Of a stretch of 64,000 nt of DNA, positions 9,399-42,131 are shown piece by piece. Every line of letters starts with the position of its first letter. The first letter of the stretch is position 1. Under the pieces are notes generated by a model. It made no database searches. It saw only the letters and a list, made by a program, of their open reading frames with translations, and was not told the origin of the DNA. The stretch comes from an uncultured virus (IMG/VR IMGVR_UViG_3300037307_000895) (Duplodnaviria; Heunggongvirae; Uroviricota; Caudoviricetes), in IMG/VR virus record IMGVR_UViG_3300037307_000895; one strand, 5' to 3'. The translations under genes were made by a program, and so were the position numbers.

Positions 9399-9474
9399 GT
9401 TCCCGTATCAGCCTAGTCTTCGAAACTAGAAACTGTAATGGATGAAAATGTGGGTTCGACCCCCACCGGGAATT
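9399..9474 (+). tRNA. tRNA-Arg(UCG)-like, rearranged D-arm
   Basis: GTTCCCG/CGGGAAT, CTAGT-CTTCGAA-ACTAG; D-loop-like TAATGG lies after the anticodon arm. Confidence 0.65.
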
Positions 9475-9480
9475 CAAAAT

Positions 9481-9715
9481 ATTCAGGTAGTTTAACGGAT
9501 AAAACAGTCCTAAAACGTACGGATAGTCTTGAAGAAAGACGGGTTTTAACTTGCTACCGGAGGCATTCAATTTATGGTTGTGTATCAACTGTTGTAAGTC
9601 CAAAGGGTGTGAGGTTCGATCTGAATGGTTTACGGATGCACTGAGAAACACTCAGGAAGCGCGTTTCCAAGGACGATTTGTAAAACTTTTGTGGGTTCGA
9701 TTTCCATCCTGAATA
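9481..9715 (+). ncRNA. tRNA scaffold with ~158-nt insert in the anticodon loop
   Basis: ATTCAGG/CCTGAAT, D-arm GTTT/AAAC, GTCCT..insert..AGGAC, T-arm GTGGG-TTCGATT-TCCAT. Confidence 0.6.
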
Positions 9716-9721
9716 CAAATT

Positions 9722-9806
9722 GGAAGATTGTCAGAGTGGTCTATTGTACTTCTTTGCTAAAGAAGCGGGTGTAACAGCCCCACAGGTTCGAATCCTGTAT
9801 CTTCCG
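9722..9806 (+). tRNA. tRNA-Ser(GCU)
   Basis: GGAAGAT/ATCTTCC, CTTCT-TTGCTAA-AGAAG. Confidence 0.9.
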
Positions 9807-9815
9807 CATAAAATT

Positions 9816-9906
9816 GGAAGTGTACCCAATGTTGGCAAAGGGGACGGTTTGCTAAACCGTTAGGTCGGTTAATCCCGGCGAGTGGGGTCGGCACCCACCA
9901 CTTCCG
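9816..9906 (+). tRNA. tRNA-Ser(GCU)
   Basis: GGAAGTG/CACTTCC, ACGGT-TTGCTAA-ACCGT, variant T-loop. Confidence 0.8.
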
Positions 9907-9911
9907 CAAAT

Positions 9912-10000
9912 GGTGGGATACCCAAGTGGTTATAAGGGGCTTGCTTGGAAAGCAAGTAGGTCGTTAATTCGGCGCATGGGTTCGAATCCCATTCTCACCG
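9912..10000 (+). tRNA. tRNA-Ser(GGA)
   Basis: GGTGGGA/TCTCACC, CTTGC-TTGGAAA-GCAAG. Confidence 0.9.
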
Positions 10001-10015
10001 CTAAAAAATAAAATT

Positions 10016-10213
10016 ATGATTTTAGAAGAAAAAATAGATGAATTGATTTTTGTTGAACAAAGGACATTTTATATCTATAATTCAGAAGAAGATAGAAAAG
10101 CCGGAAAATATTTATTTGTAACTTCCGACGAGAGTGCCTTTTTAAAACAAAAAGAAAAACTAAAAAGTAAATTATCAATCATCAGAGACGAAAAAATAAA
10201 TAAGATTTTATGA
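10016..10213 (+). CDS. hypothetical protein with C-terminal tag
   Basis: ends IRDEKINKIL. Confidence 0.6.
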   Translation: MILEEKIDELIFVEQRTFYIYNSEEDRKAGKYLFVTSDESAFLKQKEKLKSKLSIIRDEKINKIL

Positions 10214-10500
10214 TAATTGGTAAGTGCCCCATATGTGATAGAGATATGATTGAAGATGTTTATGTAGATCGTCATCACTTCTACCCAAAATGTAAAGGAG
10301 GACGTGAAACTGAATGGGTGCATAAAATATGCCATCGTAAAATTCATTCTGTTTTTACCGAAACTGAATTAGCTAAACATTATAATAATGCAGAATCGGT
10401 AAGAGAACATCCCGAAATGATCAAATTTATAAAATGGGTATCTAAAAAAGATCCTGATTTTTATGATAAAAATATAACACATAATAGAAAAAGAAAATGA
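10210..10500 (+). CDS. small HNH endonuclease-family protein
   Basis: CPICDR..HHFYPKCKGG..CHRKIH. Confidence 0.8.
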   Translation: MIIGKCPICDRDMIEDVYVDRHHFYPKCKGGRETEWVHKICHRKIHSVFTETELAKHYNNAESVREHPEMIKFIKWVSKKDPDFYDKNITHNRKRK

Positions 10501-10949
10501 AAACTTTAAAAGAATATCAAGAACACATTCAGAAAATGAAAGAGGATCCTGAATATAAAAGGCAATATCTTTTAGGAGTCAAACAAAAGCAGAAGGAAGA
10601 TTTTGCTAAGATAAAACCATTTGAAAAAGCAGAAGATGTTCCTCAATTGCCAAGAGCTGATAATTTAGAAGAATGGAAAGAATTTTATGTTCCGATAATA
10701 ATCAATAAAGGAGGAATACCAAAAGAAAAATTAGTTGATGAGGAATGGTATTACGGTGACCACAGAAGATGTCATTTTGCTAAATGGAATGAAAAGGAAA
10801 ACAAATTCGAATATGTAAGATATAAATTTGGTTACTATTGGGATGAATGTAATCACTTTGAAGATGATGATGGATTCGCTCTATTTGTTCCTTTAAGAAT
10901 CGCAACTGAAGAAGAAAAAGAAGAACAACTAAAAAATATAAATAAATAA
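10497..10949 (+). CDS. hypothetical protein
   Basis: ORF track, operonic overlap. Confidence 0.6.
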   Translation: MKTLKEYQEHIQKMKEDPEYKRQYLLGVKQKQKEDFAKIKPFEKAEDVPQLPRADNLEEWKEFYVPIIINKGGIPKEKLVDEEWYYGDHRRCHFAKWNEKENKFEYVRYKFGYYWDECNHFEDDDGFALFVPLRIATEEEKEEQLKNINK

Positions 10950-10950
10950 T

Positions 10951-11409
10951 ATGAAATACTATCAAACAGACCAATTGCAAAAGATGATAAATTGGGAAAA
11001 GATAATGGATTTACCAAGATATGCGGGTGGTCATGACGACCAAATGATATCTCTTTTTAAAGATTCTGTTTTGGTAGGACACTGGAATGAAGGTGATTAT
11101 CAAGGAGAAGTGGCTACTTGTGTTTGTTTATCAGATGGTAAGTATGCTATTTATAATGATTATTATGGATCTTGTTCAGGATGTGATGCTTGGGAAGGAG
11201 CTACAGATGATGAAGTTAGAGCAATGTGTATAGGCCTTTCTAATGATGCATATGTATTTGAATCTCTAACTGATGTAGTTGATTATTTAACTACAAAGGA
11301 CAAAGATAAATATTCATGGAATGGAAAATGTTCTGAAGGACTATTGAAATCTATTCAGGATAATATATCAGCTATGAGAGATTTGAAAATAAGTAAGATT
11401 ACAAAATAA
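10951..11409 (+). CDS. conserved phage protein (YGSCSGCDAW motif)
   Basis: ORF track; C-terminal MRDLKISKITK. Confidence 0.6.
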   Translation: MKYYQTDQLQKMINWEKIMDLPRYAGGHDDQMISLFKDSVLVGHWNEGDYQGEVATCVCLSDGKYAIYNDYYGSCSGCDAWEGATDDEVRAMCIGLSNDAYVFESLTDVVDYLTTKDKDKYSWNGKCSEGLLKSIQDNISAMRDLKISKITK

Positions 11410-11527
11410 TATATAATTAAATATTTTTTATTTAAAAATAAATTCGTATATTTGTATAATGAGAAGAAATTATAAACATAAGTAATTGTAAGTCAAAGCC
11501 TGATATTTCAGCGATAATGCTGTATTG

Positions 11528-11552
11528 AACCCGGTCTTTGGCCGGGTTTTTT
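11528..11552 (+). terminator. intrinsic terminator downstream of a promoter and micro-ORF
   Basis: AACCCGGTC-ttt-GGCCGGGTT plus T tract. Confidence 0.75.
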
Positions 11553-11573
11553 ATTTAAAAAAAATTAAATATC

Positions 11574-12949
11574 ATGAAAAGTATTAATAAAGGTGATAAA
11601 GTAAAAATGACAGAAAAGTTGAAAATATCTTTGATGTCGAATGGTTGTGAAGATCATGTAATTGAATTTGGAAATTGTATAGGTATTGTCGAAGATAGGT
11701 GTTATCCAAATATTAATGAAGCTACAGAAGTTAATGTCAGGTGGCAGCCATCAGGTCTTAGATATGGATACTTTCCAGATGAATTAGAAAAAATTAAAGA
11801 CTAAATGTTATGAAAAACAAAGATATAAATTGGCTCAACGATAAGATTCAAGATATCAAAAAGAGAAAAAGAAGTCTTGAAATGCTTATAGATCCTGAAT
11901 TGAAAAAGAAAATTAGGAAAGATTTAAAGCGTGAATATCGTTCTGTCAAAAGATCAGAAAAGCAGAATGTGGATAAACACATTAAAGAAGAAATTAACAA
12001 ATACAACAATTAATTATGAAATTAACTCAAAAAGATTTCCAAGAAGGACAAGTTTTAACTTGTGTAAAATTAAATTGTGATGGTTATAATGGGGGTGATG
12101 TAGATGATGAAAGATTGATACTCGGCGAAAAATATACAATCACAGATTTGGACTTTCATTTTCCCGACAGAGTTTGTGTTAAATTGAAAGGTCCTTATTA
12201 TTTTCACGAAGAATTTGTTCCAATTGAATGTTTTTGTGATACGGCTTATATTCGTAATGAAAAGATTAAAGAAATTTTAAAATGAAAGATATAGAAAAAT
12301 ATAAAATTGAAACTAAAGTAGAACCAATAGCAGCATATTTCACCCTGTTGATGGGTATGTTAAAAGAGCCTTTTATGTCGTCAGACCTTAAATATCTGAT
12401 TATACAAGGCTCTTACACAAAACTGATGGATATGGGTTATTCTAGAGAAGAAGTTGCTGATTTTGCTGATAAGGTTTCTGTATTTGTTAAAGAGAATATT
12501 GAAATAAACTCTTTTATGGGATAAAAAATTATTATAAAAATGAAAAGCGAAGTTTGTAATCATGATAGTGTGAAAAATGTGTCTTCTCATAGACTAAATG
12601 ATCATATTGTTTTTATACAAGTGACTTGTATATTATGTGGAATGATTAGATATGAAACAAAAGATTTAAAAACGGGTTCAGTAACAACATCTATATGGTC
12701 AAAAAAATGAAAATAGTAAGAGGTAAAACTCCTTATCTTATGGACGCTATTAGCGTCTTGAGTGTTAGAAAATTATTTGATGATAATGCGGAATGCAAAT
12801 TTGATTTTAATTGTGTGTCCAAAAAATTAACAATTTTAGATAATTACAAAACACAACAAGACTATATGTACGGAAAGGAATACCGAGTAGAATACTTACC
12901 AGACTTACAATATATCAGAGAAGAAAAAATTAAAGAAATATTAGAATGA
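11574..12949 (+). CDS. cluster of short hypothetical proteins (11574-11804, 11810-12013, 12016-12285, 12282-12524, 12695-12949)
   Basis: Tightly packed co-oriented ORFs; two end in the R.EKIKEIL tag. Confidence 0.55.
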
Positions 12950-13605
12950 AATCATATCCGAAAATAGAACATTATAATAAGGCTCCCTTTGGAGAACATT
13001 GCTATGCCTTCTACAAACATGATGGTTCTAACTTCCGTGCTGAGTGGGGTAGAAAAAGAGGTTGGTATAAATGGGGTACAAGAAATGTAATGATTGATAA
13101 AAATACTCCTTTTTATGGAGAAGCTATTGATATCTTTTTGAATAAATATGGTCAAAATTTAGATGATGTATTCAGAATTGAATATCCTAAAGTTGATAGT
13201 TTTGTTGTCTTTGGTGAATTTTTAGGTCCGAATTCTTTCGCTGGCAAACACGTTGAAACTGATAATATGGATGTAATTATATTTGATGTTAATCAACACA
13301 AAAGAGGTTTCTTACCACCTAAAGAATTCATTGAAAATTTTGGTCATCTTGATATTCCTAAAATTATCTATCAAGGAGAATACAACCACGAATTAATCAA
13401 AAAGGTAAAAGCCAACCAATTTGGATTAGAAGAAGGTGTAGTCTGTAAAGGTGTGATTAAAACGAAAAAAGAAGGTGAAGTTGTTTGGATGAATAAAATA
13501 AAAACCAATCAATGGATCGAAAAAGTAAAAATATTGTATGGTGAGAAGGCACTGATTGAAGAATTCAATAGTGACTCTAAAATATTAAAAGAATATGAAT
13601 ACTAA
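12946..13605 (+). CDS. ATP-dependent RNA ligase-like nucleotidyltransferase
   Basis: Motif I KHDGSN, FGEF, IFDV, EEGVVCK, KIK. Confidence 0.75.
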   Translation: MKSYPKIEHYNKAPFGEHCYAFYKHDGSNFRAEWGRKRGWYKWGTRNVMIDKNTPFYGEAIDIFLNKYGQNLDDVFRIEYPKVDSFVVFGEFLGPNSFAGKHVETDNMDVIIFDVNQHKRGFLPPKEFIENFGHLDIPKIIYQGEYNHELIKKVKANQFGLEEGVVCKGVIKTKKEGEVVWMNKIKTNQWIEKVKILYGEKALIEEFNSDSKILKEYEY

Positions 13606-14320
13606 AAAGAGAATATTCAGTTTAAGGGGTATATCACCTGATTATCCAAGAATACCACATTTAGATAAAAAAATATCTAATATGACACACGATGATATTC
13701 TTTCTGATAATTCTATTGTCTATCCCATAGACGGATATGTTCAAGAAAAAATAGATGGTGCTAACTTGGGTGTTTCATGGTATAAAAATGGACCGATTGT
13801 TAGAAATAGAAATAATATCTTAAAGAAAGGTTATTCTAAAATACACACACCTGCAAAAGAGCAATTCAAATCTACATGGAATTGGGTTCATGATAATAGA
13901 AAAGATATTCAAATAATATCTGAAAAATTAATGTCTGAGATAACAATTTACGGCGAGTGGATGATTGCACAACATTCTATTGAATATAATAAACTCCCTG
14001 ATTGGTTTATCGCTTATGATATATGGGTAGTAGAAGATAATAAATTTTTGTCTCCAAAGAAAGTGGAAGAACTACTTTCTAAGACAAACATATCTTATAT
14101 TAAACCACATAAGACAGTATTAAATGATACTAATGATGTGATTAGGTGGTCAGAAATGCCATCTGATTATAGAAATGGTGTTCGTGAGGGAATTGTTATT
14201 AAAACTGTGGAAGGTGATTATATTAAAGATACTTATAAGGTAGTTAATAAGCACTTTGTTCGTAGAGAAGATTTTAATGAAAAATTAATTAGAAATAAAT
14301 TAATAATTAATGATTATTAA
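13595..14320 (+). CDS. ATP-dependent RNA ligase (Rnl2-like)
   Basis: QEKIDGAN, YGEW, AYDI, REGIVIK, YKVVN. Confidence 0.85.
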   Translation: MNTKKRIFSLRGISPDYPRIPHLDKKISNMTHDDILSDNSIVYPIDGYVQEKIDGANLGVSWYKNGPIVRNRNNILKKGYSKIHTPAKEQFKSTWNWVHDNRKDIQIISEKLMSEITIYGEWMIAQHSIEYNKLPDWFIAYDIWVVEDNKFLSPKKVEELLSKTNISYIKPHKTVLNDTNDVIRWSEMPSDYRNGVREGIVIKTVEGDYIKDTYKVVNKHFVRREDFNEKLIRNKLIINDY

Positions 14321-14371
14321 GTCATTTGAAGATTGGCTAAATGAAGGTGTTGATTTTAAGGATAATTTCAC

Positions 14372-14404
14372 AAAAAGAGAGTCTGTAATTGACTCTCTTT
14401 TTTT
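14372..14404. terminator. bidirectional terminator
   Basis: AAAAAGAGAGTC-tgtaatt-GACTCTCTTTTT between convergent genes. Confidence 0.75.
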
Positions 14405-14405
14405 A

Positions 14406-15638: not shown

Positions 15639-15646
15639 TTTTATTT

Positions 15647-18118: not shown

Positions 18119-18249
18119 TCGTTTTTTTATTTTTATATATTTTTGTATTTTAAAATTTTAAAGTGTGATTTCAATATTGTTCTTACATAATCCTTGATAA
18201 TAAAGTGTTTCCGAGTAATGTTATCTTATTGCTAAGTAATTTGGATTAA

Positions 18250-18660: not shown

Positions 18661-18661
18661 T

Positions 18662-19072: not shown

Positions 19073-19082
19073 TAAAAAAAAA

Positions 19083-19627: not shown

Positions 19628-19658
19628 AAGATATGGTATTCTTTATAAGTAAAGAAGT

Positions 19659-21372: not shown

Positions 21373-21468
21373 ATGAACAACAGAATAGAAATATCAGTTA
21401 ACGGAGCTTCTTATGAAGCTTATTATTATGAGGAGGAAACTCGCTCAGTTGAACTGGCATTTCTATAA
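21373..21468 (+). CDS. attenuator leader peptide (Tyr/Glu-rich)
   Basis: MNNRIEISVNGASYEAYYYEEETRSVELAFL; AGTTGAACTGG pairs with the terminator arm. Confidence 0.85.
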   Translation: MNNRIEISVNGASYEAYYYEEETRSVELAFL

Positions 21469-21867: not shown

Positions 21868-21953
21868 GGGAGTATAACGCCAGCGGCACGTAAGCCGCCC
21901 CTAATCAAACAGGCGTACGGAAGGTAAGTATGGTTCAAATCCTGCTACTCCCA
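21868..21953 (+). tRNA. tRNA-like RNA, rearranged D-arm, 6-nt loop containing GTA
   Basis: GGGAGTA/TACTCCC; ACGCC/GGCGT helix enclosing GCGGC-ACGTAA-GCCGC. Confidence 0.55.
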
Positions 21954-21959: not shown

Positions 21960-22044
21960 GTCACGGTATGCAAATTGGTTAAGCGACCAGACTTTCAATC
22001 TGGGAACCGAATGGTTCGTGCGGGTTCGAACCCCGTCCGTGATA
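21960..22044 (+). tRNA. tRNA-Glu(UUC) with long variable arm
   Basis: CCAGA-CTTTCAA-TCTGG; GAACC/GGTTC variable stem. Confidence 0.85.
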
Positions 22045-22051
22045 CTAAAAC

Positions 22052-22145
22052 GGGAGGCGTCTACACAACGGGTCTGTAAAACCCGTCTGCATTATCAAAA
22101 TAGTGTATGGATTGCAGTTTAAAGGTTCGATTCCTTCGTCTCCCA
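22052..22145 (+). tRNA. tRNA-Tyr(GUA)-like, rearranged D-arm
   Basis: GGGAGGC/GTCTCCC, CGGGT-CTGTAAA-ACCCG, TACAC/GTGTA followed by TGG. Confidence 0.6.
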
Positions 22146-23801: not shown

Positions 23802-23873
23802 ATGAAACAAATTAATAACATATCAGCGATAGCACAAATAGGGGGAGGCGCCGGCGCGTCGTCTTGTGGCTGA
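23802..23873 (+). CDS. attenuator leader peptide (Ile(ATA)/Ala/Gly-rich)
   Basis: MKQINNISAIAQIGGGAGASSCG; TGTGGCTG pairs with CAGTCACA. Confidence 0.8.
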   Translation: MKQINNISAIAQIGGGAGASSCG

Positions 23874-23964: not shown

Positions 23965-24047
23965 CGGTAGGTACCGGTGGTGTCTTATACACACTATAAC
24001 CGTAACTGGTATGTTGAAATATGTGGGTTCGAATCCCATCCTACCGA
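23965..24047 (+). tRNA. tRNA-Ile(UAU)-like, rearranged D-arm
   Basis: CGGTAGG/CCTACCG, GGTGT-CTTATAC-ACACT, CGGT/ACCG followed by TAACTGG. Confidence 0.65.
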
Positions 24048-24054
24048 CAAATAA

Positions 24055-24137
24055 GCGGGTATCGTATAATGGAGGCATATGCCAGATTATAGGAGCCTTC
24101 CAAGCTTCGGATGTCGGTTCGATTCCGACTACCCGCT
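24055..24137 (+). tRNA. tRNA-Gly(UCC), enlarged D-loop
   Basis: GCGGGTA/TACCCGC, GAGC-CTTCCAA-GCTT. Confidence 0.8.
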
Positions 24138-24145
24138 CATAATAT

Positions 24146-24222
24146 GGGGGTTGGGACTGCAATGGGGTGGTCACCTGACTTGCAATTAGGAAAACAGACG
24201 GTATCGTTCACCGTAACCTCCA
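24146..24222 (+). tRNA. tRNA-Ala(UGC), variant T-loop
   Basis: G3.U70, CCTGA-CTTGCAA-TTAGG. Confidence 0.75.
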
Positions 24223-24266
24223 CAACATGCCGGATGATCCACCGTTGAATCGCGGTGCCGGCTCCA

Positions 24267-24741: not shown

Positions 24742-25260
24742 ATGAGAAAACTACAAAAAATTTGTATAAATTACGGAGTAAATGGTATTTTAGATAAAAA
24801 TCTAATAGACATATCAATGAATGAGTTGAAATTGATAACTAATCAAACCCCAACAATAACAAGGAGCAAAAAAGACATATCTAATTTCAAACTAAGAAAA
24901 GGAATGGAATTGGGTGTAAAAGTAACTCTGAGAGGTAGGAAAATGTATCAATTTTTAGATCATCTAATAGATTGTTTATTAAATTCATACGAATTTAAAG
25001 GATTAAATGCTAATTCATTTGATAAGCATGGAAATTACTCAATGGGTATTAAAGACCAAAGAATATTTACTGAAATTAATATAGATAATATCAAAAATGT
25101 TAATGGAATGGACATTACATTTGTAACAAACTGTAATAAAAGTGATTCTTTAATTTTACTAAATAAATTAAACCTACCATTTACAGTCGATAGAGAATTC
25201 AATATTACTAAAAGTGATAGAATAATAAAGTTTAATAAAAAATATAAATCAAGTGAGTAA
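24742..25260 (+). CDS. rplE: 50S ribosomal protein uL5 homolog
   Basis: KLQKICINYGV, SKKDISNFKLRKGMELGVKVTLRG, SFDKHGNYSMGIKDQRIFTEI, GMDITFVT. Confidence 0.9.
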   Translation: MRKLQKICINYGVNGILDKNLIDISMNELKLITNQTPTITRSKKDISNFKLRKGMELGVKVTLRGRKMYQFLDHLIDCLLNSYEFKGLNANSFDKHGNYSMGIKDQRIFTEINIDNIKNVNGMDITFVTNCNKSDSLILLNKLNLPFTVDREFNITKSDRIIKFNKKYKSSE

Positions 25261-30182: not shown

Positions 30183-30995
30183 ATGTATATGAAACAGAAA
30201 GACTCACTTGGCGATCGTATGAAATTTTACGAATCGCAAACCTGTGTGGAAAGATTACTTCCACTAATTCCAATTGTTGCCAGACTTGATGGTAAAGGAT
30301 TTTCTAAATTCACTAAAGGTTTGAAAAGACCTTATGATGAAAGACTGTCTAATCTGATGGTTGAAACCACTAAATACTTGGTTAAAGAAACCAACGCAAA
30401 CTGTGGTTATACTCAATCTGATGAAATTACTCTTGTTTGGTATTCTGAAGATCTCGAATCTCAAGTTTACTTCGATGGTAGAATTATGAAGATGGTTTCA
30501 GACCTAGCATCTATGTGCTCTGTCTTTTTCAACTCTAAACTGCCAGAATATCTTCCTGAAAAGTCAGATAAACTTCCAAGATTCGATTGTAGAGTATTCA
30601 GTGTTCCAACTCTAACTGAAGCAGTTAATGCTTTTTATTGGAGAGAAAAAGATGCTACCAAGAACTCTATTTCCATGTCTGCTCAATCTTTTTATTCTCA
30701 CAAGGAATTGATGAATAAAAACAGTGGTGAAAAACAAGAAATGCTTTTTCAAAAAGGTGTTAATTGGAATGATTATCCTTCTTTCTTCAAAAGAGGAACT
30801 TATGTTCAACGAAAGAGAGTGTTGACTAAATTTAGCGACGAAGAACTATCTAAACTTCCACCTAAACACAATGCTAGAAAAGATCCTGATTTTGTTGTTG
30901 AAAGATGGGTTATTGATAGAGTAAATCTACCACCACTATCAAAAATTAAGAATCAAGTAGATGTAATCATCTATGGAAAAGATCCGATTGAATAG
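30183..30995 (+). CDS. thg1: tRNA-His guanylyltransferase / Thg1-like protein
   Basis: ARLDGKGFSKFT, YTQSDEITL, FDGR..K, FDCR, WREKDA.KNS. Confidence 0.92.
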   Translation: MYMKQKDSLGDRMKFYESQTCVERLLPLIPIVARLDGKGFSKFTKGLKRPYDERLSNLMVETTKYLVKETNANCGYTQSDEITLVWYSEDLESQVYFDGRIMKMVSDLASMCSVFFNSKLPEYLPEKSDKLPRFDCRVFSVPTLTEAVNAFYWREKDATKNSISMSAQSFYSHKELMNKNSGEKQEMLFQKGVNWNDYPSFFKRGTYVQRKRVLTKFSDEELSKLPPKHNARKDPDFVVERWVIDRVNLPPLSKIKNQVDVIIYGKDPIE

Positions 30996-32531: not shown

Positions 32532-32568
32532 AAATGAAAAATTAAATTAAAAATACTATCTTTGTTAG

Positions 32569-33333: not shown

Positions 33334-33338
33334 ATAAT

Positions 33339-33545
33339 ATGAATACAGATTTTAAACAAGACCAAAAAGTGTCTTATGACTATGGTATTATCAAAGGTAC
33401 CGGAAAGGTTGTTGGTATAGCATCAAACGGAGTTCCGTTAGTTGGAAAAACCTATATCATTGAACCTGATGTTGCATTTAATAATGAAGTGTATCCTTAC
33501 ACACATTTTGTTTGTCCCGAATTATACTTAACTACTATTAATTGA
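33339..33545 (+). CDS. hypothetical protein
   Basis: ORF track. Confidence 0.5.
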   Translation: MNTDFKQDQKVSYDYGIIKGTGKVVGIASNGVPLVGKTYIIEPDVAFNNEVYPYTHFVCPELYLTTIN

Positions 33546-33551
33546 TAAATT

Positions 33552-36022: not shown

Positions 36023-36281
36023 AGGAAATGTTTGGGAGGTTAAATATTGTAATGAAGAACTAAAAAGTAAAAAAAGTACTTTTCATGCTCTTGTTTATGC
36101 TAAAATGGAAGACTTTGACTTGGAAGAATCAATAGTTTTAGAATATAAGTCTAGATTCTATATATGCTCATCTTTTGGAATAAGAGAATCTATAAGTAAT
36201 GCAGTTGAGTTATATCTAAGTTATTTAGTAGATGAAACAAGGGACATTAAAATTAAATTAATAAATGGTGAAAAAATATAA
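36003..36281 (+). CDS. hypothetical protein with C-terminal tag
   Basis: TRDIKIKLIN. Confidence 0.5.
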   Translation: MTKIYHKGNVWEVKYCNEELKSKKSTFHALVYAKMEDFDLEESIVLEYKSRFYICSSFGIRESISNAVELYLSYLVDETRDIKIKLINGEKI

Positions 36282-37272
36282 ATCAGGGTATGTATTAGGG
36301 AAATTTCTACCCTTTCATTTGGGTCATAAATATCTTATTGATACTGCGGTAGAAAATTGTGATAAAGTTACCGTTTTGGTAGGAACTCTTCCAAAAGAAC
36401 CGATTCCTGGTGCTCTTAGATATCAATGGGTTAAAGATACTTATAAAAATAATGACAATGTTACTGTTAAATGGTGTAATGAAATATTACCCCAACAACC
36501 AGAAGAGCACCCAGATTTTTGGAATATTTGGGTCGATGTGGTAAAAAGGTATTGTCCTGATGATATTGACGTTATATTTACCTCGGAAAGTTATGGTGAC
36601 CCGTATGCCAAGCATTTAGGAATAAAACATCATTTGGTAGATATTGAGAGAAAGAAATATCCTATATCAGGAACCCTGTGTAGAAATGAAACTTTTAAAC
36701 ATTGGGATTTGTTAACAGACGAAGCAAAGCCTTATTTTGTTAAAAAAGTTGCTATTATGGGGCCTGAGTCAACAGGCAAATCCGAGTTAACAAAAAAATT
36801 AGCTCATCATTTTGAAACAGAATTTGTTGAAGAATATGGCAGGACTGTTTATGAAGAAAATGGTAATAGTGTAAGTATATCAGATTTTATCAAAATATCT
36901 GTCGGAAGACAAAAGATAGAAGATGAGAAAATTAAAAAGGCGAATAAAATTTTATTCTGTGATACAGAAGATATAACAACCTATTATCTTTTGAAAGAAT
37001 ATTATCCAAAAAACTGGGTAGAAGTTAAACATTGGTTTTATCATAGAATGAATGATTATAGAAATTATGACTTGTATATTTTATTAAAGCCCGATTGTAA
37101 TTGGGTTCAAGATGGAACAAGAACTTTTGAAAATAATAGATGGGAACAATATGAAATAATTAAATCATTTTTGCTACAAAAAAATTGTAACTTTGTAGAG
37201 ATTGGGGGAGATTGGAATAATAGATTTAAAGAATCAATAAAAATAATTAATAAATTATGGATATCGAATTAA
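36265..37272 (+). CDS. nadR: NadR-like NMN adenylyltransferase / nicotinamide riboside kinase (no HTH)
   Basis: GKFLPFHLGH (HxGH), ISGT, GPESTGKS, EYGR, WVQDGTR. Confidence 0.92.
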   Translation: MVKKYKSGYVLGKFLPFHLGHKYLIDTAVENCDKVTVLVGTLPKEPIPGALRYQWVKDTYKNNDNVTVKWCNEILPQQPEEHPDFWNIWVDVVKRYCPDDIDVIFTSESYGDPYAKHLGIKHHLVDIERKKYPISGTLCRNETFKHWDLLTDEAKPYFVKKVAIMGPESTGKSELTKKLAHHFETEFVEEYGRTVYEENGNSVSISDFIKISVGRQKIEDEKIKKANKILFCDTEDITTYYLLKEYYPKNWVEVKHWFYHRMNDYRNYDLYILLKPDCNWVQDGTRTFENNRWEQYEIIKSFLLQKNCNFVEIGGDWNNRFKESIKIINKLWISN

Positions 37273-38248
37273 AATTAAAAGAAGTTTTGGGTGAGAAAGG
37301 ATTTAAAAGGGCCCAAATGATAGCAGAGAATAAATTTGGACACAAAACTAATTTAATAGAGAAGTATTATAACTCTTTAATAAATGGATATTTAGACATT
37401 AATGAAGAATGGTCTAATGACTTTGTGATTGAAATGATTAAAAATAAATATAATAAAGTAGAAGACAAAAGGAAGTTTATTGAAGATATTTTGAGTACCT
37501 ATGATACTAAAGATGATAGAACACGAAATCTTCTTGAAAAGTATTTGAGAGCTTTACGAAATAATAAAATATAAAAAACATGAGAGTTATTCAAGTAAGA
37601 TTTGACACAGTAATGATAACTTTGTTAATGGATAGATTGGATTTAAATGAAATCGTTAAACTAATAAATTCAGAATCAAGGTTTGGATTATATGTTGAAA
37701 ATGATAAAATTTTGATGAAGTGGAATGAAAATAATATTGAAGAGTGTTATATTGAAGATGTAACCGACCAGAGAGGAATCATACAATTTGAACAACATTA
37801 AAAAAATGATAATATGAAAATTTGGAACTTTGAAGGAAACGATGAAAACTACATCTCAGATGTCTTCAAAATACTAAAGAAGTATTCTGATGGATTCAAC
37901 GAATCACAAAAAGTATTGACTGCTCGAATCGATCCAAGAATTAACAATAATTCAGAGGCGGTATTCTCAATGAATCTTGATAATGGTTTTAATTTAATGA
38001 CTTGTACAGTTAAGTTTGACGGTTATGTGAAATTAGAAATTAACTATTACAGAGATAAAATAAAAGAAACCTTAAAAATCGGTAAAATAGAAACTCTATT
38101 AGATGAAGTTATTAAAAGTGATAAGATGGCTTCACTTATATCTCATTTAATTTTTATAAAAAAATCTGCGGATAGGATTGCCGCACAAGCGGTCCACCTT
38201 GAGGATTCAAATACTATTCGTACAAATGATCGTAATTATTGGATTTAA
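37257..38248 (+). CDS. three hypothetical proteins (37257-37574, 37580-37801, 37814-38248)
   Basis: ORF track. Confidence 0.5.
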
Positions 38249-38725
38249 ATGAAAATATTATTTTTAGATATTGATTCAGTGATGATTGTCCATGATTGGA
38301 ACAAGGCAGATCCTCCATGTGATAAGTTTGGTATGCTTCCATTTACCAAAGAATGTGTAGAAGCTCTAAATGAGATTATTCTAAGGACTGATTGTAAAAT
38401 TGTCCTTAGTTCTGACCACAAACATAATCATGATTTAGAAACTCTGAATCAAATTTTCGTTTCTAACGGTTGTAATGAAGGTCCGATTGATATAACTCCC
38501 ACATCACCACTATACAGAGGTGATAACCTTGATGACGGCAGAGCTCATGAAATTATCATGTGGATAGAAAGAGCCAACTTCAATTTTAAGTGGGTGGCGG
38601 TTGATGATTTATTTTTAGATAAAGGAGAATTTAGAGAAAAAATGAAAAATAATTTTGTTGAAACTCAAAATGGTATCCATCTTGTTAAGGATAAAATAAT
38701 AAAAATATTAAATGATTTACTTTAA
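38249..38725 (+). CDS. HAD-superfamily phosphatase (Swiss-army-knife RNA-repair type)
   Basis: ILFLDIDSV, KIVLSS, WVAVDD. Confidence 0.75.
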   Translation: MKILFLDIDSVMIVHDWNKADPPCDKFGMLPFTKECVEALNEIILRTDCKIVLSSDHKHNHDLETLNQIFVSNGCNEGPIDITPTSPLYRGDNLDDGRAHEIIMWIERANFNFKWVAVDDLFLDKGEFREKMKNNFVETQNGIHLVKDKIIKILNDLL

Positions 38726-40459
38726 AGAATATATCATAAAAGTAGAAAGTGAAAAATATCCATTTTTTGACATTAAAAATATAGACATTAGAGATATTAA
38801 AGAAATAGGTAATGGAAGCTTTGAAGTTAATTATGATTTTAGTGTTGTCTCACGAATGGACTCAAAATGGTCTTTAAATAGAAGGGAAAAGAGGGTTTTA
38901 AATCTTATGCAAATAAGAGAGGAAAGAATAAACCAAATTTTAGATGTTTGAATTTTTTAAAAAGAAGGAAAAAGAATATAAAGAAGCCGAATTTCGTATT
39001 TTTAGATATCGAACCCCAAAACTACATCTTGGAAATAACATCATTGGAAATCAAAATAAAATAATAAGATTAAAAGATATCATAGTTCAAGAAATTGGAG
39101 GGATGTGTGAATTAAATGACGATGGGCTAATTGGACATTCACCGATGTTTGTAGATTCTATTTTAGATAAACCACTAACTTGTGAATATGCCTATGCCAT
39201 TAATTGTGATGGTTCAGTTAAATTTTTTAATACAATTGAAGAATGTTTAGAATTTTATTTCTATTCATTTTCTATTTACTCAAATCCTTATAAAAACTTT
39301 TCTCCCGATGATCGTGTATCAACACTTAAATATATTGATATTCCTATAATATTAGAATTTATGATGGATAAATGTATTCCAGTTTTTATAAATGACAATT
39401 ATGAAATATTTAAAGACAGAACAAATGCTTTAATAGGATATCACAGTATTGAAATGAATAGTTTTATGAATGCACTTCCAAAAATATTTTATGGATCTTT
39501 TTATATGGATTCAAATAGTAGAATAGTACACTCAATATCAGAGGAACTTTTAACCATGGATATAATTGAAACCAAGTCAGCACCATATAAACCATATGCT
39601 AATATACCTGGTAATTGTTTTGATTCAAACGGATTTGTTTTTTATAAAAGTGATGTAATAGAATATTCTAACTACAAAGAATACTTAAGACTTAATAAAT
39701 CATTCTTGAGAGATAGGAAAATTGAATCTATTCTAAACTAATAAAAATAGTAATTATATAAAAAGGGTGCAGGATATTAATGAGAAAAAAATATTTAAAA
39801 AATTACCTGATTATTTTCATATAAATGAAAATTTGACTAATTTTCAAAGGAAATCTATATCATATTCGTTGACTAGTGAAATGATTCAAGAAATAGGAAT
39901 AGACCCAGAGCCTTATATTAATGATATAATTTCAAATGAAATATTATCATATATACAAAAAACTTGCTTTAAAAAAGATCAATATTCTAATCCTTACTTT
40001 TTAGACGAAAGGGATAAAGATGAACAAAGAATTGTTGATGACTTATCTTATTTAACTTATTGTGAGTGTAAAAAATATTTCATTTCATCACCTAGAATAG
40101 TGACCTTACTATCAAATCATCCAATGTTTTCTGTATATTTTTCACACGCAGCTGGTATTGGAAGTTTATATAGTTTAATAGGAAAATATGATAAAACAGA
40201 AATATTAATTAATAACCTATTAAAACATGATGATAATTTTATACTACTATTTGATAGTGTTGAAATATCATTGAAAATAATTGATTCGAAAATTGTTGAC
40301 GAGGCAACATTTTCCCCAAGGACTATAATAGAATTTTTATTCGATTATAGAGTAATAAATCCCAAACCGGTTTATTTTATTGAAAATAAAGATTCGGAAT
40401 TCTATAGTGAATTTCTATTAAAGATTAGAGATGAAAAGATTAATAAAATTATAAATTAA
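38712..40459 (+). CDS. three hypothetical proteins with C-terminal tag (38712-38951, 38944-39741, 39767-40459)
   Basis: End IREERINQIL, LRDRKIESILN, IRDEKINKIIN. Confidence 0.55.
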
Positions 40460-40886
40460 TCTTTTGTACTATATCATCAAGAAATTCTTTAGATTCTTCT
40501 TCTGATAAATCATTTAAATCCTTACCATGTTCAACTGAAAAAGCATAATCACCAAGCTTTATTAGCTTTTTACCAGGTCCATCATTATCATATATTACAA
40601 TTTTCTTTTGTGGTAAGGTTTTTAACCAACCTACTAATTGTGGGCTTGGGTCATTACATAAAACTGCAATTCCAGGATATCCCGCCTGATGGACTCTCGC
40701 GATATCAAATATTCCTTCAGTTATAAATAAAAACTTATCTGTAAAATTATAAGATTCTAATCCCCATACAGCAATTTTCTTACCATATTGTTCATCTCCG
40801 ACCCAGTTATAATATTTTGTATCCTTAACATTATCTCTTTGACCTTTCTTTGGAAATTTTGGATTATACTTTTGATATCCAACCAT
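40449..40886 (-). CDS. TOPRIM-domain primase-like protein (N-terminus possibly truncated or frameshifted)
   Basis: FITEGIFD, YDNDGPG, KDLND. Confidence 0.75.
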   Translation of the reverse strand: MVGYQKYNPKFPKKGQRDNVKDTKYYNWVGDEQYGKKIAVWGLESYNFTDKFLFITEGIFDIARVHQAGYPGIAVLCNDPSPQLVGWLKTLPQKKIVIYDNDGPGKKLIKLGDYAFSVEHGKDLNDLSEEESKEFLDDIVQKINL

Positions 40887-41006
40887 TTGGTAATATCAAA
40901 ATATTGGCTTATCTTTGTATTAATAGTTGTTAATCTATTCAAAATTAACTGGTGGCGTTAAAGAAGTTCACGATAGTAACTTCCTAACAAATAAAATTAG
41001 GAAGAA

Positions 41007-41234
41007 ATGAAAAAGTTACTAGAGTTAATTGAACAACTCAAAATGGCCGAAAAAGAACAAAAAGAATTCTCTCAAATTGTTCGTAGAAAAATAAAAGGTA
41101 AATATGACCACAATAAACACCAAGCTTATATGGCGATTTACAATCACTATGGAATGAGAGAGAGATATGAAAAAATCAGAAATCTTAAACAAAAAATAAA
41201 TCAACTTCGTTTAAGATACTGGTATTGGGAATAA
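41007..41234 (+). CDS. hypothetical protein
   Basis: ORF track. Confidence 0.5.
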   Translation: MKKLLELIEQLKMAEKEQKEFSQIVRRKIKGKYDHNKHQAYMAIYNHYGMRERYEKIRNLKQKINQLRLRYWYWE

Positions 41235-41240
41235 AAAATA

Positions 41241-41272
41241 TTTGGTAGAAATAAAAAAAGTTTCTATCTTTG
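41241..41272 (+). promoter_or_regulatory. Bacteroidetes-type promoter of the large tRNA operon
   Basis: TTTG-N20-TATCTTTG; TAATATATA at ~41316. Confidence 0.75.
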
Positions 41273-41344
41273 TGTAACAAATCTCAAAAAAGATAAAAAG
41301 AGAGATTAAACTTTTAATATATAACAATATATAATAAACTAATT

Positions 41345-41458
41345 ATGAAACTGAATAACAGAAATATGACGATTATGAACCTCAATATGGTGGTGATTAC
41401 ATTATGTAATAGAACCTCATATCCGGGTTTTGCTCATATTCCTGATATTATTGTATAA
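41345..41458 (+). CDS. attenuator leader peptide (Leu/Asn/Arg/Met/Thr/Ile/Val/Cys)
   Basis: MKLNNRNMTIMNLNMVVITLCNRTSYPGFAHIPDIIV; TCCGGGTTT pairs with AGACCCGGA. Confidence 0.8.
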   Translation: MKLNNRNMTIMNLNMVVITLCNRTSYPGFAHIPDIIV

Positions 41459-41479
41459 TAGTTGTTGGAAGTAGTAGTA

Positions 41480-41510
41480 AAGACCCGGAACCAAAAGTTT
41501 CGGGTTTTTT
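41480..41510 (+). terminator. intrinsic terminator (attenuator)
   Basis: AAGACCCGGAAC..GTTTCGGGTTTT plus T tract. Confidence 0.85.
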
Positions 41511-41516
41511 ATTTAT

Positions 41517-41600
41517 GGCTCTGTGGCGAAATTGGTACGCGTCAGACTTAAAATCTGATGGACTGAAAAGTCCGTGTCGGTTCGACCCCGACCAGAGCCA
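41517..41600 (+). tRNA. tRNA-Leu(UAA)
   Basis: TCAGA-CTTAAAA-TCTGA. Confidence 0.92.
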
Positions 41601-41609
41601 CAACAAATT

Positions 41610-41697
41610 GGCTGAGTGGTGGAAGTAAACATGGTAGACACACTAGTCTTAGAAACTAGTACCGAAAGGTGTGAGGGTTCGAGTCCCTCCTTGGTCA
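41610..41697 (+). tRNA. tRNA-Leu(UAG)
   Basis: CTAGT-CTTAGAA-ACTAG. Confidence 0.88.
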
Positions 41698-41709
41698 CAA
41701 CAAAAATAA

Positions 41710-41788
41710 GCCTCCGTAGTCGAGTGTGCCTTCTAAGCATTTAATCGTAACGGAACTGAAAATGTGGGTTCGAATCCCACCGGAGGTT
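41710..41788 (+). tRNA. tRNA-Arg(UCU)-like, rearranged D-arm
   Basis: GCCTCCG/CGGAGGT, GTGC-CTTCTAA-GCAT, CGA/TCG followed by TAACGG. Confidence 0.65.
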
Positions 41789-41793
41789 CAAAT

Positions 41794-41878
41794 GGATGGG
41801 TTGCTTTAGAGGCCGAAAAGTCTGGGCTGTTAACCCAGTGTCGCAAGACCGCCGTGGGTTCGAATCCCACCCCATCCT
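41794..41878 (+). tRNA. tRNA-Asn(GUU), long variable arm
   Basis: CTGGG-CTGTTAA-CCCAG. Confidence 0.85.
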
Positions 41879-41883
41879 CACAT

Positions 41884-41957
41884 TGGAATGTAGCTCAAAT
41901 GGTTAGAGCGCGAAGCTGATACCTTCGAGGTAGTGGGATCGTTACCCGCCATTCCAA
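41884..41957 (+). tRNA. tRNA-Ile(GAU)
   Basis: CGAAG-CTGATAC-CTTCG; variant T-loop. Confidence 0.82.
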
Positions 41958-41959
41958 CA

Positions 41960-42050
41960 AGGGAAAAAATAAAAGAAGAGATAGAAAAATGTGTCTTAGT
42001 GTGTTCTAATTGTCATAGAGAGATACATTACGGTATAATTGATATAGAAA
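41960..42050 (+). pseudogene. HNH endonuclease C-terminal remnant
   Basis: Spacer translates REKIKEEIEKCVLVCSNCHREIH. Confidence 0.6.
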
Positions 42051-42131
42051 CGGCGTGTAACCCTCAATCCTGATAAGATTGCTACGGGTAATTGGTAAGT
42101 GAAAATGCAGGTTCGATTCCTGTCACGCCGA
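42051..42131 (+). tRNA. tRNA-Ile(GAU)-like, rearranged D-arm
   Basis: CGGCGTG/CACGCCG, CAATC-CTGATAA-GATTG, ACCC/GGGT followed by AATTGGTA. Confidence 0.68.

What the first reader, a model, noticed from the sequence alone, without database searches (positions are those of the whole stretch)
9399..42131. Family of tRNAs with a strand-swapped D-arm (D-loop moved into the variable region)
Six genes lack a normal D hairpin: 9399 Arg-UCG, 21868 GTA-like, 22052 Tyr-GUA, 23965 Ile-UAU, 41710 Arg-UCU and 42051 Ile-GAU; 2022 Trp may be a seventh. A short strand before the anticodon stem pairs with a strand after it, with covariation: CAG/CTG, CGCC/GGCG, CAC/GTG, CGGT/ACCG, CGA/TCG, CCC/GGG. The second strand is always followed by TA(A)(Y)(T)GG, like a D-loop with G18G19, and in four cases by TGAAA(T)AT before the T-arm. 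The anticodons match their array's leader codons, and both Arg members share G1.U72/U73 with the two canonical Arg tRNAs, which argues for function. This may be an undescribed tRNA topology that still forms the L-shape (inference).
Basis: partly seen in the sequence, partly recalled or inferred. Interest (0 to 1): 0.85.

Follow-up and report, generated by a model that had tools for sequence, protein, structure and literature searches.

The report
Phage tRNAs with a rewired D-arm
Four arginine and isoleucine tRNA genes in this giant-phage window belong to a widespread phage tRNA family that replaces the usual D hairpin with a helix closed across the anticodon arm, a design that gene finders miss and that we found described in no paper.

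Summary
Four genes form one family: Arg-UCG 9399-9474, Ile-UAU 23965-24047, Arg-UCU 41710-41788 and Ile-GAU 42051-42131. Each has a normal acceptor stem, anticodon arm and T-arm but no D hairpin.

A motif scan of IMG/VR gave 98 unique tRNA-like relatives, 96 of them Arg or Ile. CCA follows the discriminator in 46 of 98. Ten cultured Pseudomonas phages (PA11, TC6 and others) carry an unannotated Arg-UCU copy.

He missed a second helix: positions 10-11 pair with the two bases just before TGAAAAT (GC39/AU17 and CG34/UA16). The D-loop-like UAAYUGGA is therefore a bulge in a 5-7 bp helix that continues the anticodon stem. RNAalifold predicts the same fold independently.

The base after GG is A in 78 of 78 Arg members and U in 16 of 18 Ile members. 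The discriminator is A in 18 of 18 Ile members. These match bacterial ArgRS and IleRS identity sets.

The two Tyr-like genes are a different, poorly sampled subtype, and 21868 looks degenerate. Trp-2022 is unresolved. Charging, processing and the L-shape are untested. This scan did not record the fold on other DNA.

The parts
9399..9474 (+). Rewired tRNA-Arg(UCG), short form. Acceptor 9399-9405 with 9467-9473, and U73. U8 A9 at 9406-07. 5' strand 9408-9411 (U CAG). Anticodon arm 9413-9429. Partner strand CUG 9433-35. D-loop-like UAAUGGA 9436-42. UGAAAAU 9443-49. T-arm 9450-66.
   Evidence: sequence. (R1 72 bits). (short-form statistics). (no ARAGORN call).
23965..24047 (+). Rewired tRNA-Ile(UAU). 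5' strand C CGGU 23974-78. Anticodon arm 23979-95. Partner ACCG 23999-24002. Bulge UAACUGG+UAU. G-U pairing C10/A9. UGAAAUAU 24015-22. T-arm 24023-39. A73.
   Evidence: 51 bits; the ortholog in LR756502 has CAG/CUG in place of CGG/CCG.
41710..41788 (+). Rewired tRNA-Arg(UCU), long form. G10 U11 (41719-20) pair with A C (41755-56). CGA (41721-23) pairs with UCG (41745-47). Anticodon arm 41725-41. Bulge UAACGGA 41748-54. UGAAAAU 41757-63. T-arm 41764-80. G1.U72, U73.
   Evidence: 90 bits; the ortholog in LR745206 has CCC/GGG.
42051..42131 (+). Rewired tRNA-Ile(GAU). ACCC 42060-63 pairs with GGGU 42086-89. Anticodon arm 42065-81. AAUUGG 42090-95. UAAG. UGAAAAU 42100-06. T-arm 42107-23. A73. A canonical Ile-GAU lies 93 nt upstream (41884-41958).
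   Evidence: 55 bits; orthologs have CGA/UCG.
22052..22145 (+). Tyr(GUA) gene without a D hairpin, a different subtype. ACAC 22063-66 pairs with GUGU 22103-06, inside the loop of a variable-arm stem CUGCA 22087-91 / UGCAG 22113-17 (a pseudoknot if both form). AUGGA follows the second strand.
   Evidence: Only one outside homologue (L226) was found, with CGAA/UUCG and CUGCU/AGCAG.
21868..21953 (+). Paralog of the Tyr-type gene (ACGCC/GGCGU, CCU/AGG). Its anticodon loop is 6 or 8 nt and its T-stem is largely unpaired. Probably a decayed copy.
   Evidence: No match.

Best explanation
The four Arg/Ile genes encode working elongator tRNAs of a phage-borne family with a rewired core.

Shown (secondary structure):
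- The 5' strand of the D stem stays in place (U8 A9 then positions 10-14). The anticodon arm follows it directly.
- Its partner lies 3' of the anticodon arm in two pieces. Three bases pair with 12-14. Then comes a D-loop-like bulge, UAA(Y)(U)GG plus position 20. Then two bases pair with 10-11, and the invariant U and G could pair with A9 and U8.
- The result is one long arm: anticodon stem, small internal loop, then a 5-7 bp helix carrying the bulge. It meets the acceptor/T stack at a three-way junction through a purine-rich linker (GAAAAU).

Inferred (function):
- The bulge presents G18 G19 and position 20 as a D-loop does, so host ArgRS and IleRS charge these tRNAs.
- They are cut out of the tRNA arrays like their neighbours and then read AGA, CGN and AUH codons of the AT-rich phage.

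Speculative (why rewired):
- Many phages carry a canonical and a rewired tRNA with the same anticodon. This window also encodes RNA-repair enzymes. The altered shape most plausibly protects Arg and Ile decoding from a host or rival factor that recognises the normal D-arm/anticodon-stem shape.
For: Family size. These gave 113 parsed hits, 102 unique and 98 that passed the checks. Anticodons: TCT 49, ACG 15, GAT 14, TCG 12, TAT 4, CCT 2, CTT 1, and 1 misparse.

Covariation in 59 long-form Arg members (MAFFT alignment):
- 96.1% of cells are paired, against 62.7% in shuffles (0 of 500 reach it) and 37-45% when partners are slid.
- 10:50 is GC39, AU17, UA1.
- 11:49 is CG34, UA16, AU2, UG2.
- 13:38 is GC42, CG9, AU7, GU1.
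- 14:37 is paired in 41 of 59.
- These four pairs were not fixed by the search motif.
- RNAalifold predicts the same fold unprompted. Fixed-register counts with shifted controls agree.

Ortholog swaps between this window and LR745206/LR756502: CGA/UCG to CCC/GGG, CGG/CCG to CAG/CUG, and CCC/GGG to CGA/UCG.

Signs of real tRNA genes:
- CCA follows the discriminator in 46 of 98.
- Spacing within arrays is like that of neighbouring tRNAs.
- T-loop is TTCRANY, with U33 and R37 in the anticodon loop.

Identity elements. The base after GG is A in 78 of 78 Arg and T in 16 of 18 Ile. The discriminator is A in 18 of 18 Ile and A, G or U in 77 of 78 Arg. Passages read from PMC9976931 give bacterial identity as Arg = A20, C35, U/G36, A/G/U73 and Ile = A73, U20, U21.

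Restriction to Arg and Ile. 19 further members found by the model have only Arg or Ile anticodons. The motif-free scan gave 82 Arg/Ile of 84 hits, plus one Ile-like CAT and one false positive, with 0 in shuffles.

Context:
- Leader ORF codons match.
- 12 of 60 loci hold a canonical tRNA with the same anticodon within 3 kb.
- RNA ligase, an RNA-repair HAD domain and Thg1 are in the window.
- In phage Boevelstad the gene lies 309 nt downstream of an RNA ligase gene, with one small ORF between.
Against: No RNA evidence: no expression, end-processing, CCA addition, modification or charging was seen.

The tertiary structure is unknown. Only one base separates G19 from the helix, so a canonical G19-C56 elbow may not form.

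Sampling limits:
- The homologue set was collected with a motif that fixes G before TAA, GG, TGAAAAT and GGTTC, so their invariance is by construction.
- Related sequences share ancestry, so cell counts overstate independent events.

Weak spots in the fold:
- Pair 14:37 fails in 18 of 59 (AC 12, AA 5, UU 1).
- In the short form, which includes three of the four window genes, only 2-3 bp are supported (12:partner 34 of 35; next pair 18 of 35), and the 10-partner pairing is weak.

Identity-element contrasts may reflect few evolutionary events.

The defence-evasion motive has no direct support. The Pseudomonas phages carry this as their only tRNA, which fits plain codon supply equally well (TC6 is 45% GC and its host 66%, PMC6209634).
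Confidence: 0.75

Rival explanations
1. tRNA mimics that are not used in translation. They would act as decoys that soak up a host tRNA-targeting nuclease or toxin, or another tRNA-binding factor, or as regulators.
For: Canonical tRNAs with the same anticodon often sit nearby (12 of 60 loci; the window's Ile-GAU pair). RNA-repair genes are in the window. The unusual core might be rejected by EF-Tu or the ribosome.
Against: Synthetase identity elements outside the anticodon are kept (A20, U20, A73). CCA is encoded in 46 of 98. Several cultured phages carry it as their only tRNA-like gene, where a decoy for one Arg isoacceptor is less obvious than AGA supply. Leader codons match.
Confidence: 0.12
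2. A plain D-armless tRNA, as in mitochondria. It would have a short extension of the anticodon stem and a floppy long variable region. The second helix and the D-loop mimicry would be over-reading.
For: In the short form the 10-partner pairing is weak. Single-sequence folds show only the first helix.
Against: In 59 long-form members 10:50 and 11:49 are paired in 57 and 54 sequences, with 18 double changes each. Slid registers give 2-21 of 59. The GG motif and position 20 are conserved by amino-acid class.
Confidence: 0.08
3. Decayed or chimeric tRNA pseudogenes left by recombination within tRNA arrays.
For: 21868 has a broken T-stem and an abnormal anticodon loop. The window holds other odd tRNA-like pieces.
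Against: For the four Arg/Ile genes there are about 100 homologues on different contigs with compensatory changes in every helix. They also show encoded CCA and conservation in cultured phages at 91-100% identity.
Confidence: 0.03
4. Genes whose transcript is rearranged (spliced, permuted or trans-joined) into a normal cloverleaf.
For: RNA ligase genes are present. An apparent long insert splits another tRNA-like gene at 9478-9716.
Against: No order of cutting and joining short of moving a whole segment restores a D hairpin. The covarying helices are those of the unrearranged RNA. No intron family matched.
Confidence: 0.02

Closest known systems
D-armless mitochondrial tRNAs of animals (mt-tRNA-Ser(GCU/UCU))
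   Same: No D hairpin. A short 5' connector of 5-12 nt leads straight into the anticodon arm. They are functional despite a non-cloverleaf fold (passages of PMC4394434; PMC9976931).
   Different: The mitochondrial ones are small, have atypical T-loops, have lost the D/T-loop contact, and need co-adapted mitochondrial factors. The phage family is 76-83 nt and keeps a canonical T-loop. It has a covarying 5-7 bp helix and a conserved D-loop-like GG bulge. It must work with ordinary bacterial enzymes.
Canonical bacterial and phage tRNA-Arg and tRNA-Ile (Rfam RF00005)
   Same: 7/5 acceptor/T branch, anticodon arm, U8 A9 G10 Y11, the GG motif with A20 (Arg) or U20 (Ile), A73 in Ile, placement in tRNA arrays, and encoded CCA in about half.
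   Different: The 3' strand of the D stem and the D-loop lie after the anticodon arm, and the strand is split by the loop. RF00005 scores are at most 33 bits. ARAGORN overlaps 4 of 60 members and gets the anticodon right in 2.
Class II tRNAs, and phage or allo-tRNAs with long variable arms (PMC5389517)
   Same: An enlarged variable region. Found in phage tRNA clusters and discovered in metagenomes.
   Different: Those keep a D-arm, and their variable arm pairs with itself. Allo-tRNAs have 8/4 or 9/3 branches. Here the branch is 7/5, there is no D hairpin, and the variable region pairs with positions 10-14.
Phage tRNAs that escape tRNA-targeting defences (PMC10264068; T5 tRNA-Lys versus PARIS, PMC11464382)
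   Same: Phage-encoded copies that differ from host tRNAs, alongside tRNA-repair genes. This is a possible motive for an altered shape.
   Different: Those differ by point changes in the anticodon loop of a normal cloverleaf. No nuclease specific for Arg or Ile tRNA was linked to this family here. Only titles and abstract starts were seen.

Membership tests
tRNA (functional elongator, Rfam RF00005 cloverleaf) | 7-bp acceptor stem with discriminator, stacked on a 5-bp T-stem with a 7-nt TTCRANY loop | tested here: met
   Acceptor 99.3% and T-stem 99.3% of cells paired in 59 members, with double changes in 7 of 7 and 4 of 5 pairs. All four core window genes meet it. 21868 fails the T-stem.
tRNA (functional elongator, Rfam RF00005 cloverleaf) | 5-bp anticodon stem and 7-nt loop with U33 and purine 37 | tested here: met
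   93.2% of cells paired, with 5 of 5 pairs showing double changes. The loops read CTNNNAA or CTNNNAC. 21868 does not meet it.
tRNA (functional elongator, Rfam RF00005 cloverleaf) | D-arm hairpin (stem 10-13/22-25 closing an 8-11 nt loop) between acceptor and anticodon arms | tested here: not met
   Only 7-8 nt lie between the acceptor stem and the anticodon stem. The partner strand lies 3' of the anticodon arm.
tRNA (functional elongator, Rfam RF00005 cloverleaf) | Score above the Rfam gathering threshold (29 bits) | tested here: inconclusive
   41710 scores 32.6 bits and 42051 scores 31.3 bits (permissive filters only). 9399, 23965 and 21868 have no match. 22052 matches only tRNA-Sec, at 24.2 bits.
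tRNA (functional elongator, Rfam RF00005 cloverleaf) | Processed, CCA-tailed, aminoacylated and used on the ribosome | not testable with these tools
   Indirect only: encoded CCA in 46 of 98, and identity elements A20, U20 and A73.
D-armless mitochondrial tRNA | No D hairpin, with a short connector of 5-12 nt | tested here: met
   The connector is 7-8 nt. The definition comes from PMC4394434.
D-armless mitochondrial tRNA | Reduced size, atypical T-loop (6-7 nt), and loss of D-loop/T-loop elements | tested here: not met
   76-83 nt. T-loop TTCGAAT with G53-C61 invariant. The GG motif is conserved.
Class II / long-variable-arm tRNA | A self-paired variable-arm hairpin together with a normal D-arm | tested here: not met
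   The variable region pairs with positions 10-14, not with itself, in the Arg/Ile type. The Tyr-type may keep a variable-arm stem, but that rests on 3 sequences.
allo-tRNA / tRNA-Sec-like (8/4 or 9/3) | A 12-13 bp acceptor branch split 8/4 or 9/3, and a long D-stem with a tetraloop | tested here: not met
   The branch is 7/5 and there is no D hairpin. The definition comes from PMC5389517.

The most novel reading that the evidence does not exclude
Phages have evolved, and spread across hosts from several bacterial phyla, a second tRNA architecture that ordinary bacterial RNase P, ArgRS/IleRS, EF-Tu and ribosomes accept. It is kept beside canonical copies because its altered anticodon-branch shape makes Arg and Ile decoding immune to a tRNA-targeting defence or toxin. 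That would make it a structural, not sequence-level, counter-defence, and a natural orthogonal tRNA scaffold.
Probability: 0.3. Interest if true: 0.95.

Novelty: new variant of a known kind. Interest (0 to 1): 0.88.

Why it matters
Textbooks, and the start of a 2024 abstract (PMC11551756, seen in the listing), hold that all known bacterial tRNAs are cloverleaves. A conserved, covarying non-cloverleaf tRNA used by many phages would change several things.

- The bacterial translation apparatus would tolerate a rewired core.
- The D-loop could be studied as a movable module.
- Engineers would gain a natural scaffold for orthogonal tRNAs.
- Part of phage tRNA content is invisible to ARAGORN, which missed 56 of 60 members. 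tRNAscan-SE reported no intact tRNA for phage TC6, which carries the gene.

Codon-usage, host-prediction and anti-defence analyses of phage genomes therefore undercount Arg and Ile tRNAs. Cultured Pseudomonas phages carry the gene, so every claim can be tested at the bench.

Tried and rejected
- The window's own genome is not held, so a phage-wide census and a search for a phage ArgRS/IleRS were not possible. The two closest relatives have no ArgRS; one has class Ia synthetases.
- Expression: no RNA holder was listed for the 41480-43900 array.
Only one true homologue emerged, the same contig twice (L226 = L354). A MAFFT alignment of the three sequences was too poor at the 5' end to build a model. 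An 8-bp variable hairpin in the single-sequence fold of 22052 is not conserved in L226 or 21868, and I set it aside.
- Trp-like gene at 2022: it does not fit the model (T-arm only). It has no homologue next to the Trp gene of LR745206.
My parser returned 13 of them; I read 11 as tRNA-like and 2 as chance matches. They include Brucella haematophila and MAGs of Hoeflea and Saprospiraceae, and are presumably prophages. The rest are chance matches.
- Literature: searches found no description. One search was badly framed and useless. The 2020 review of non-canonical tRNAs (PMC7609411) has no occurrence of 'phage'.
- A reading in which the D stem keeps its canonical orientation was rejected. The anticodon arm is continuous with the 12-14 helix, so the long arm can only meet the acceptor/T stack at its 8-11 end.

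Full report
**Setting.** The window carries 40 tRNA genes by ARAGORN and 40 Rfam tRNA matches, arranged in arrays between phage-like genes. Its closest DNA relatives are two uncultured phage genomes of 634 and 642 kb, LR745206.1 and LR756502.1. Pfam finds several translation and RNA-repair genes in the window:
- a TrpRS/TyrRS-like gene
- a class II Asp/Lys/Asn-type synthetase
- an RNA ligase
- a Thg1-like enzyme
- an RNA-repair HAD domain
- ribosomal protein L5
- TonB-dependent receptors

No whole genome is held for the window.

Four genes share one plan: Arg-UCG 9399-9474, Ile-UAU 23965-24047, Arg-UCU 41710-41788 and Ile-GAU 42051-42131. The plan runs, 5' to 3':
1. a 7-bp acceptor stem
2. TA
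3. 5-6 further bases
4. directly a normal anticodon arm
5. 3-4 bases
6. a strand complementary to the bases before the anticodon arm
7. TAA(Y)(T)GG
8. 1-5 bases
9. TGAAA(T)AT
10. a normal T-arm, the acceptor 3' strand and the discriminator

ARAGORN calls none of the four. RF00005 reaches 32.6 and 31.3 bits for two of them and nothing for the other two.

- All four Arg tRNAs of the window, two canonical and two rewired, have G1.U72 and U73.
- Short ORFs followed by terminator hairpins stand before the arrays at 8954-9019, 21373-21468, 23802-23873 and 41345-41458. They are enriched in the codons read by the tRNAs that follow, including CGA, ATA (3 times), AGA (2 times), ATT and TAT (4 times).

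**A large family.**
- A parser required a T-stem, a 7-bp acceptor match and a 5-7-5 anticodon arm. It kept 113 hits, of which 102 were unique and 98 passed all checks. The rest were chance matches in coding DNA.
- Anticodons were TCT 49, ACG 15, GAT 14, TCG 12, TAT 4, CCT 2, CTT 1, and one misparse of a TCT loop.
- A covariance model (R1) built from 59 of them separates the four window genes (90, 72, 55 and 51 bits) from all canonical tRNAs (31 bits or less).
- R1 finds three members in each of the two related giant phages.
- It found 19 more members in the flanks of 69 IMG/VR loci. All have Arg (TCG, GCG, TCT, CCG, CCT, ACG) or Ile (TAT, GAT) anticodons.
- A descriptor scan used no sequence motif from the variable region. 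It asked only that the anticodon arm start 5-9 nt after the acceptor stem. It gave 84 unique hits in 614 kb of stored DNA: 82 Arg/Ile, one Ile-like CAT and one false positive. Shuffled sequence gave none.
- The several hundred other tRNAs in those same arrays, covering many other amino acids, gave no other hit in the scan.
- In species-representative bacterial genomes the same motif gave 120 loci. My parser returned 13; I read 11 as tRNA-like, and these are presumably prophages.

**The fold.**
- In the long-form Arg members, position 13 pairs with the base two before TAA in 59 of 59 (GC42, CG9, AU7, GU1).
- Position 14 pairs in 41 of 59.
- C12-G is invariant, but the G was fixed by the motif.

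He missed a second helix.
- Positions 10 and 11 pair with the two bases immediately before TGAAAAT: 57 of 59 (GC39, AU17, UA1) and 54 of 59 (CG34, UA16, AU2, UG2).
- Shifted registers give 2-21 of 59.
- On the same CGA/UCG backbone the dinucleotide occurs as GC, GU, AC, AU, UC and GA, each with its complement downstream. This indicates repeated compensatory change.

On a MAFFT alignment the whole structure has 96.1% paired cells. Shuffles give 62.7% (0 of 500 reach the observed value) and slid partners give 37-45%. RNAalifold, given no structure, returns the same helices and adds the invariant A9-U and U8.G.

The D-loop-like UAAYUGGA is therefore an 8-9 nt bulge in the 3' strand of a 5-7 bp helix. 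That helix continues the anticodon stem across a 1x3 internal loop. The 5' strand reads U8 A9 G10 Y11 N12 N13, as in any tRNA.

In the short form (35 sequences, including three of the window's four) the support is thinner. 12:partner is paired in 34 of 35 (CG18, GC12, AU3). The next pair is paired in 18 of 35. The position-10 pair is clear only where the spacer is long (C-G 4, U-A 4, of 13).

- Arg-UCU has CGA/UCG here and CCC/GGG in LR745206.
- Ile-UAU has CGG/CCG here and CAG/CUG in LR756502.
- Ile-GAU has CCC/GGG here and CGA/UCG in both relatives.

**Signs of function.**
- CCA follows the discriminator in 46 of 98 genes.
- The genes sit in arrays with the usual spacing.
- The base after GG is A in 78 of 78 Arg members and T in 16 of 18 Ile members.
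- The discriminator is A in 18 of 18 Ile members and A, G or U in 77 of 78 Arg members.
- Passages read from PMC9976931 list the bacterial identity sets. Arg is A20, C35, U/G36 and A/G/U73. Ile is A73, U20, U21 and the anticodon.
- The bulge of the rewired Arg genes (AACGGA) resembles the D-loop of the window's own canonical Arg-ACG, AACTGGA.

This argues that the bulge is read as positions 14-20 and that host ArgRS and IleRS charge these RNAs. The two related giant phages encode no ArgRS. None of this is direct evidence.

**Cultured phages.** BLAST of family members against GenBank phages found the Arg-UCU gene in ten Pseudomonas phage records, covering nine phages because PA11 is held twice: PA11, TC6, IME180, PSA11, FBPa8, PP21, HHBS10_2, vB_PaeM_Ty and Boevelstad.
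- R1 scores are 95 bits for HHBS10_2 and 82 bits for Boevelstad, and ARAGORN finds nothing in those two loci.
- No record annotates a tRNA there. The gene lies in a gap or under a 'hypothetical protein' or homing-endonuclease call.
- On 60 IMG/VR loci ARAGORN overlapped the member in 4. In two the anticodon was right but the length was 88-90 nt. In two the anticodon was wrong.

**Why rewired?** This is open.
- 12 of 60 loci hold a canonical tRNA with the same anticodon within 3 kb (L027, L033, L036, L044, L045, L052, L064, L065, L066, L069, L073, L075). The window holds a canonical and a rewired Ile-GAU 93 nt apart.
- Together with RNA ligase and repair genes, this fits the idea that phage tRNAs counter tRNA-targeting defences. 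I saw titles and abstract starts of PMC10264068, PMC11464382, PMC12673091 and PMC13056530, and passages of PMC12803027.
- I link no specific nuclease to the family.
- Plain supply of AGA and AUA decoding explains the small Pseudomonas phages equally well.

**Geometry (inference only).**
- The long arm has 5 + about 1 + 3 + 2 (+2) stacked layers, close to the canonical anticodon stem + 26 + D stem + core layers. The anticodon-to-junction distance may therefore be kept.
- The arm meets the acceptor/T stack at its 8-11 end with almost no linker, and G19 is one base from the helix. Whether G18/G19 reach the T-loop cannot be judged here.

**The Tyr-like pair.** 22052-22145 and 21868-21953 also lack room for a D hairpin and are paralogs. 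Their second strand lies far downstream, inside the loop of a variable-arm stem. Only one outside homologue was found (L226). Across the three sequences both helices change in a compensatory way:
- ACAC/GUGU, ACGCC/GGCGU and CGAA/UUCG
- CUGCA/UGCAG, CCU/AGG and CUGCU/AGCAG

This suggests a pseudoknot, but three sequences are not a test. 21868 has an abnormal anticodon loop and an unpaired T-stem and is probably decayed. The Trp-like gene at 2022 is unresolved.

**Known or new.** Full-text searches found no description.
- The 2020 review of non-canonical tRNAs never mentions phages.
- The 2016 allo-tRNA paper reports 8/4 and 9/3 forms, not this one.
- The start of a 2024 abstract says all known bacterial tRNAs are cloverleaves (listing).
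- The closest known things are the D-armless mitochondrial tRNAs. The phage family differs from them in size, in its canonical T-loop, in the covarying helix with a D-loop-like bulge, and in having to work with unadapted bacterial machinery.

I class it as a new variant of a known kind (tRNA), with high interest. Some of those may be this family as mis-drawn by ARAGORN, which I did not test.

Noticed in passing
window 8954-9019, 21373-21468, 23802-23873, 41345-41458: Each tRNA array is preceded by a 21-37 codon ORF followed by a terminator hairpin. The ORF's codons mirror the tRNAs that follow. Examples: ...YEAYYYEEE... before the Tyr/Glu array, an S/R-rich ORF before the Arg/Ser array, and ATA x3 with GGN and GCN before the Ile/Gly/Ala array. 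This looks like leader-peptide attenuation controlling tRNA arrays.
   Followed up: partly
window 1597-1687, 3394-3488, 21960-22045, 41794-41879, 42138-42224, 42230-42315, 42404-42491, 42497-42580, 43570-43656: His, Lys, Glu, Asn, Cys, Val, Thr and Met tRNAs are 84-95 nt long by ARAGORN, usually beside a normal-length copy. The one read by eye (Glu, 21960) has an extra variable-arm hairpin.
   Followed up: no
window 9478-9716: Acceptor halves ATTCAGG and CCTGAAT, with a D-arm-like start and a T-arm, enclose about 170 extra bases. This may be a tRNA gene with a large insert or intron. No Rfam intron match was found.
   Followed up: no
window 9168-9260; 24054-24137; 24145-24265; 41615-41691; 42788-42863: Further tRNA-like genes missed by ARAGORN. 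They are a Ser(UGA)-like gene, a Gly(UCC)-like gene with about 12 extra bases between the D and anticodon arms (tRNA-Sec model 27.9 bits), a 120-nt element with a CTTGCAATT loop, a Leu(UAG) gene with an odd D region (RF00005 31.2 bits), and a gene with an AGACATG anticodon loop.
   Followed up: no
window 42711-42783: An otherwise canonical tRNA (RF00005 66 bits) has an anticodon loop of 6 or 8 nt (ACCGG-ACTGATTT-CCGGT). ARAGORN reports a 2-base anticodon.
   Followed up: no
window 2196-2918, 13595-14320, 24742-25260, 30183-30995, 38249-38725, 44190-45407, 58112-58636: Translation and RNA-repair genes lie among the arrays. They are a TrpRS/TyrRS-like protein (240 aa), an RNA ligase, ribosomal protein L5, a Thg1-like enzyme, an RNA-repair HAD domain, a class II Asp/Lys/Asn-type synthetase and a P-loop kinase.
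   Followed up: partly
NC_007808.1 47672-47751 (L504:1501-1580); PQ464592.1 (L502:1495-1574): In Pseudomonas phage PA11 the unannotated rewired Arg-UCU gene overlaps the 3' end of an HNH endonuclease gene likened to T5 TflI. In phage Boevelstad it lies 309 nt downstream of an RNA ligase gene, with one small ORF between.
   Followed up: partly
window 41960-42050; L001 4419-4624: Coding remnants lie between tRNA genes. The stretch in this window, translated by eye and not checked against a profile, reads ...CSNCHREIHYG..., like the end of an HNH endonuclease. This hints at homing-endonuclease traffic in the arrays.
   Followed up: no
L226:359-435: Beside the only outside Tyr-type homologue lies an Asp(GUC) tRNA with a 5-bp D-stem and tetraloop, which resembles tRNA-Sec or allo-tRNA.
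   Followed up: no
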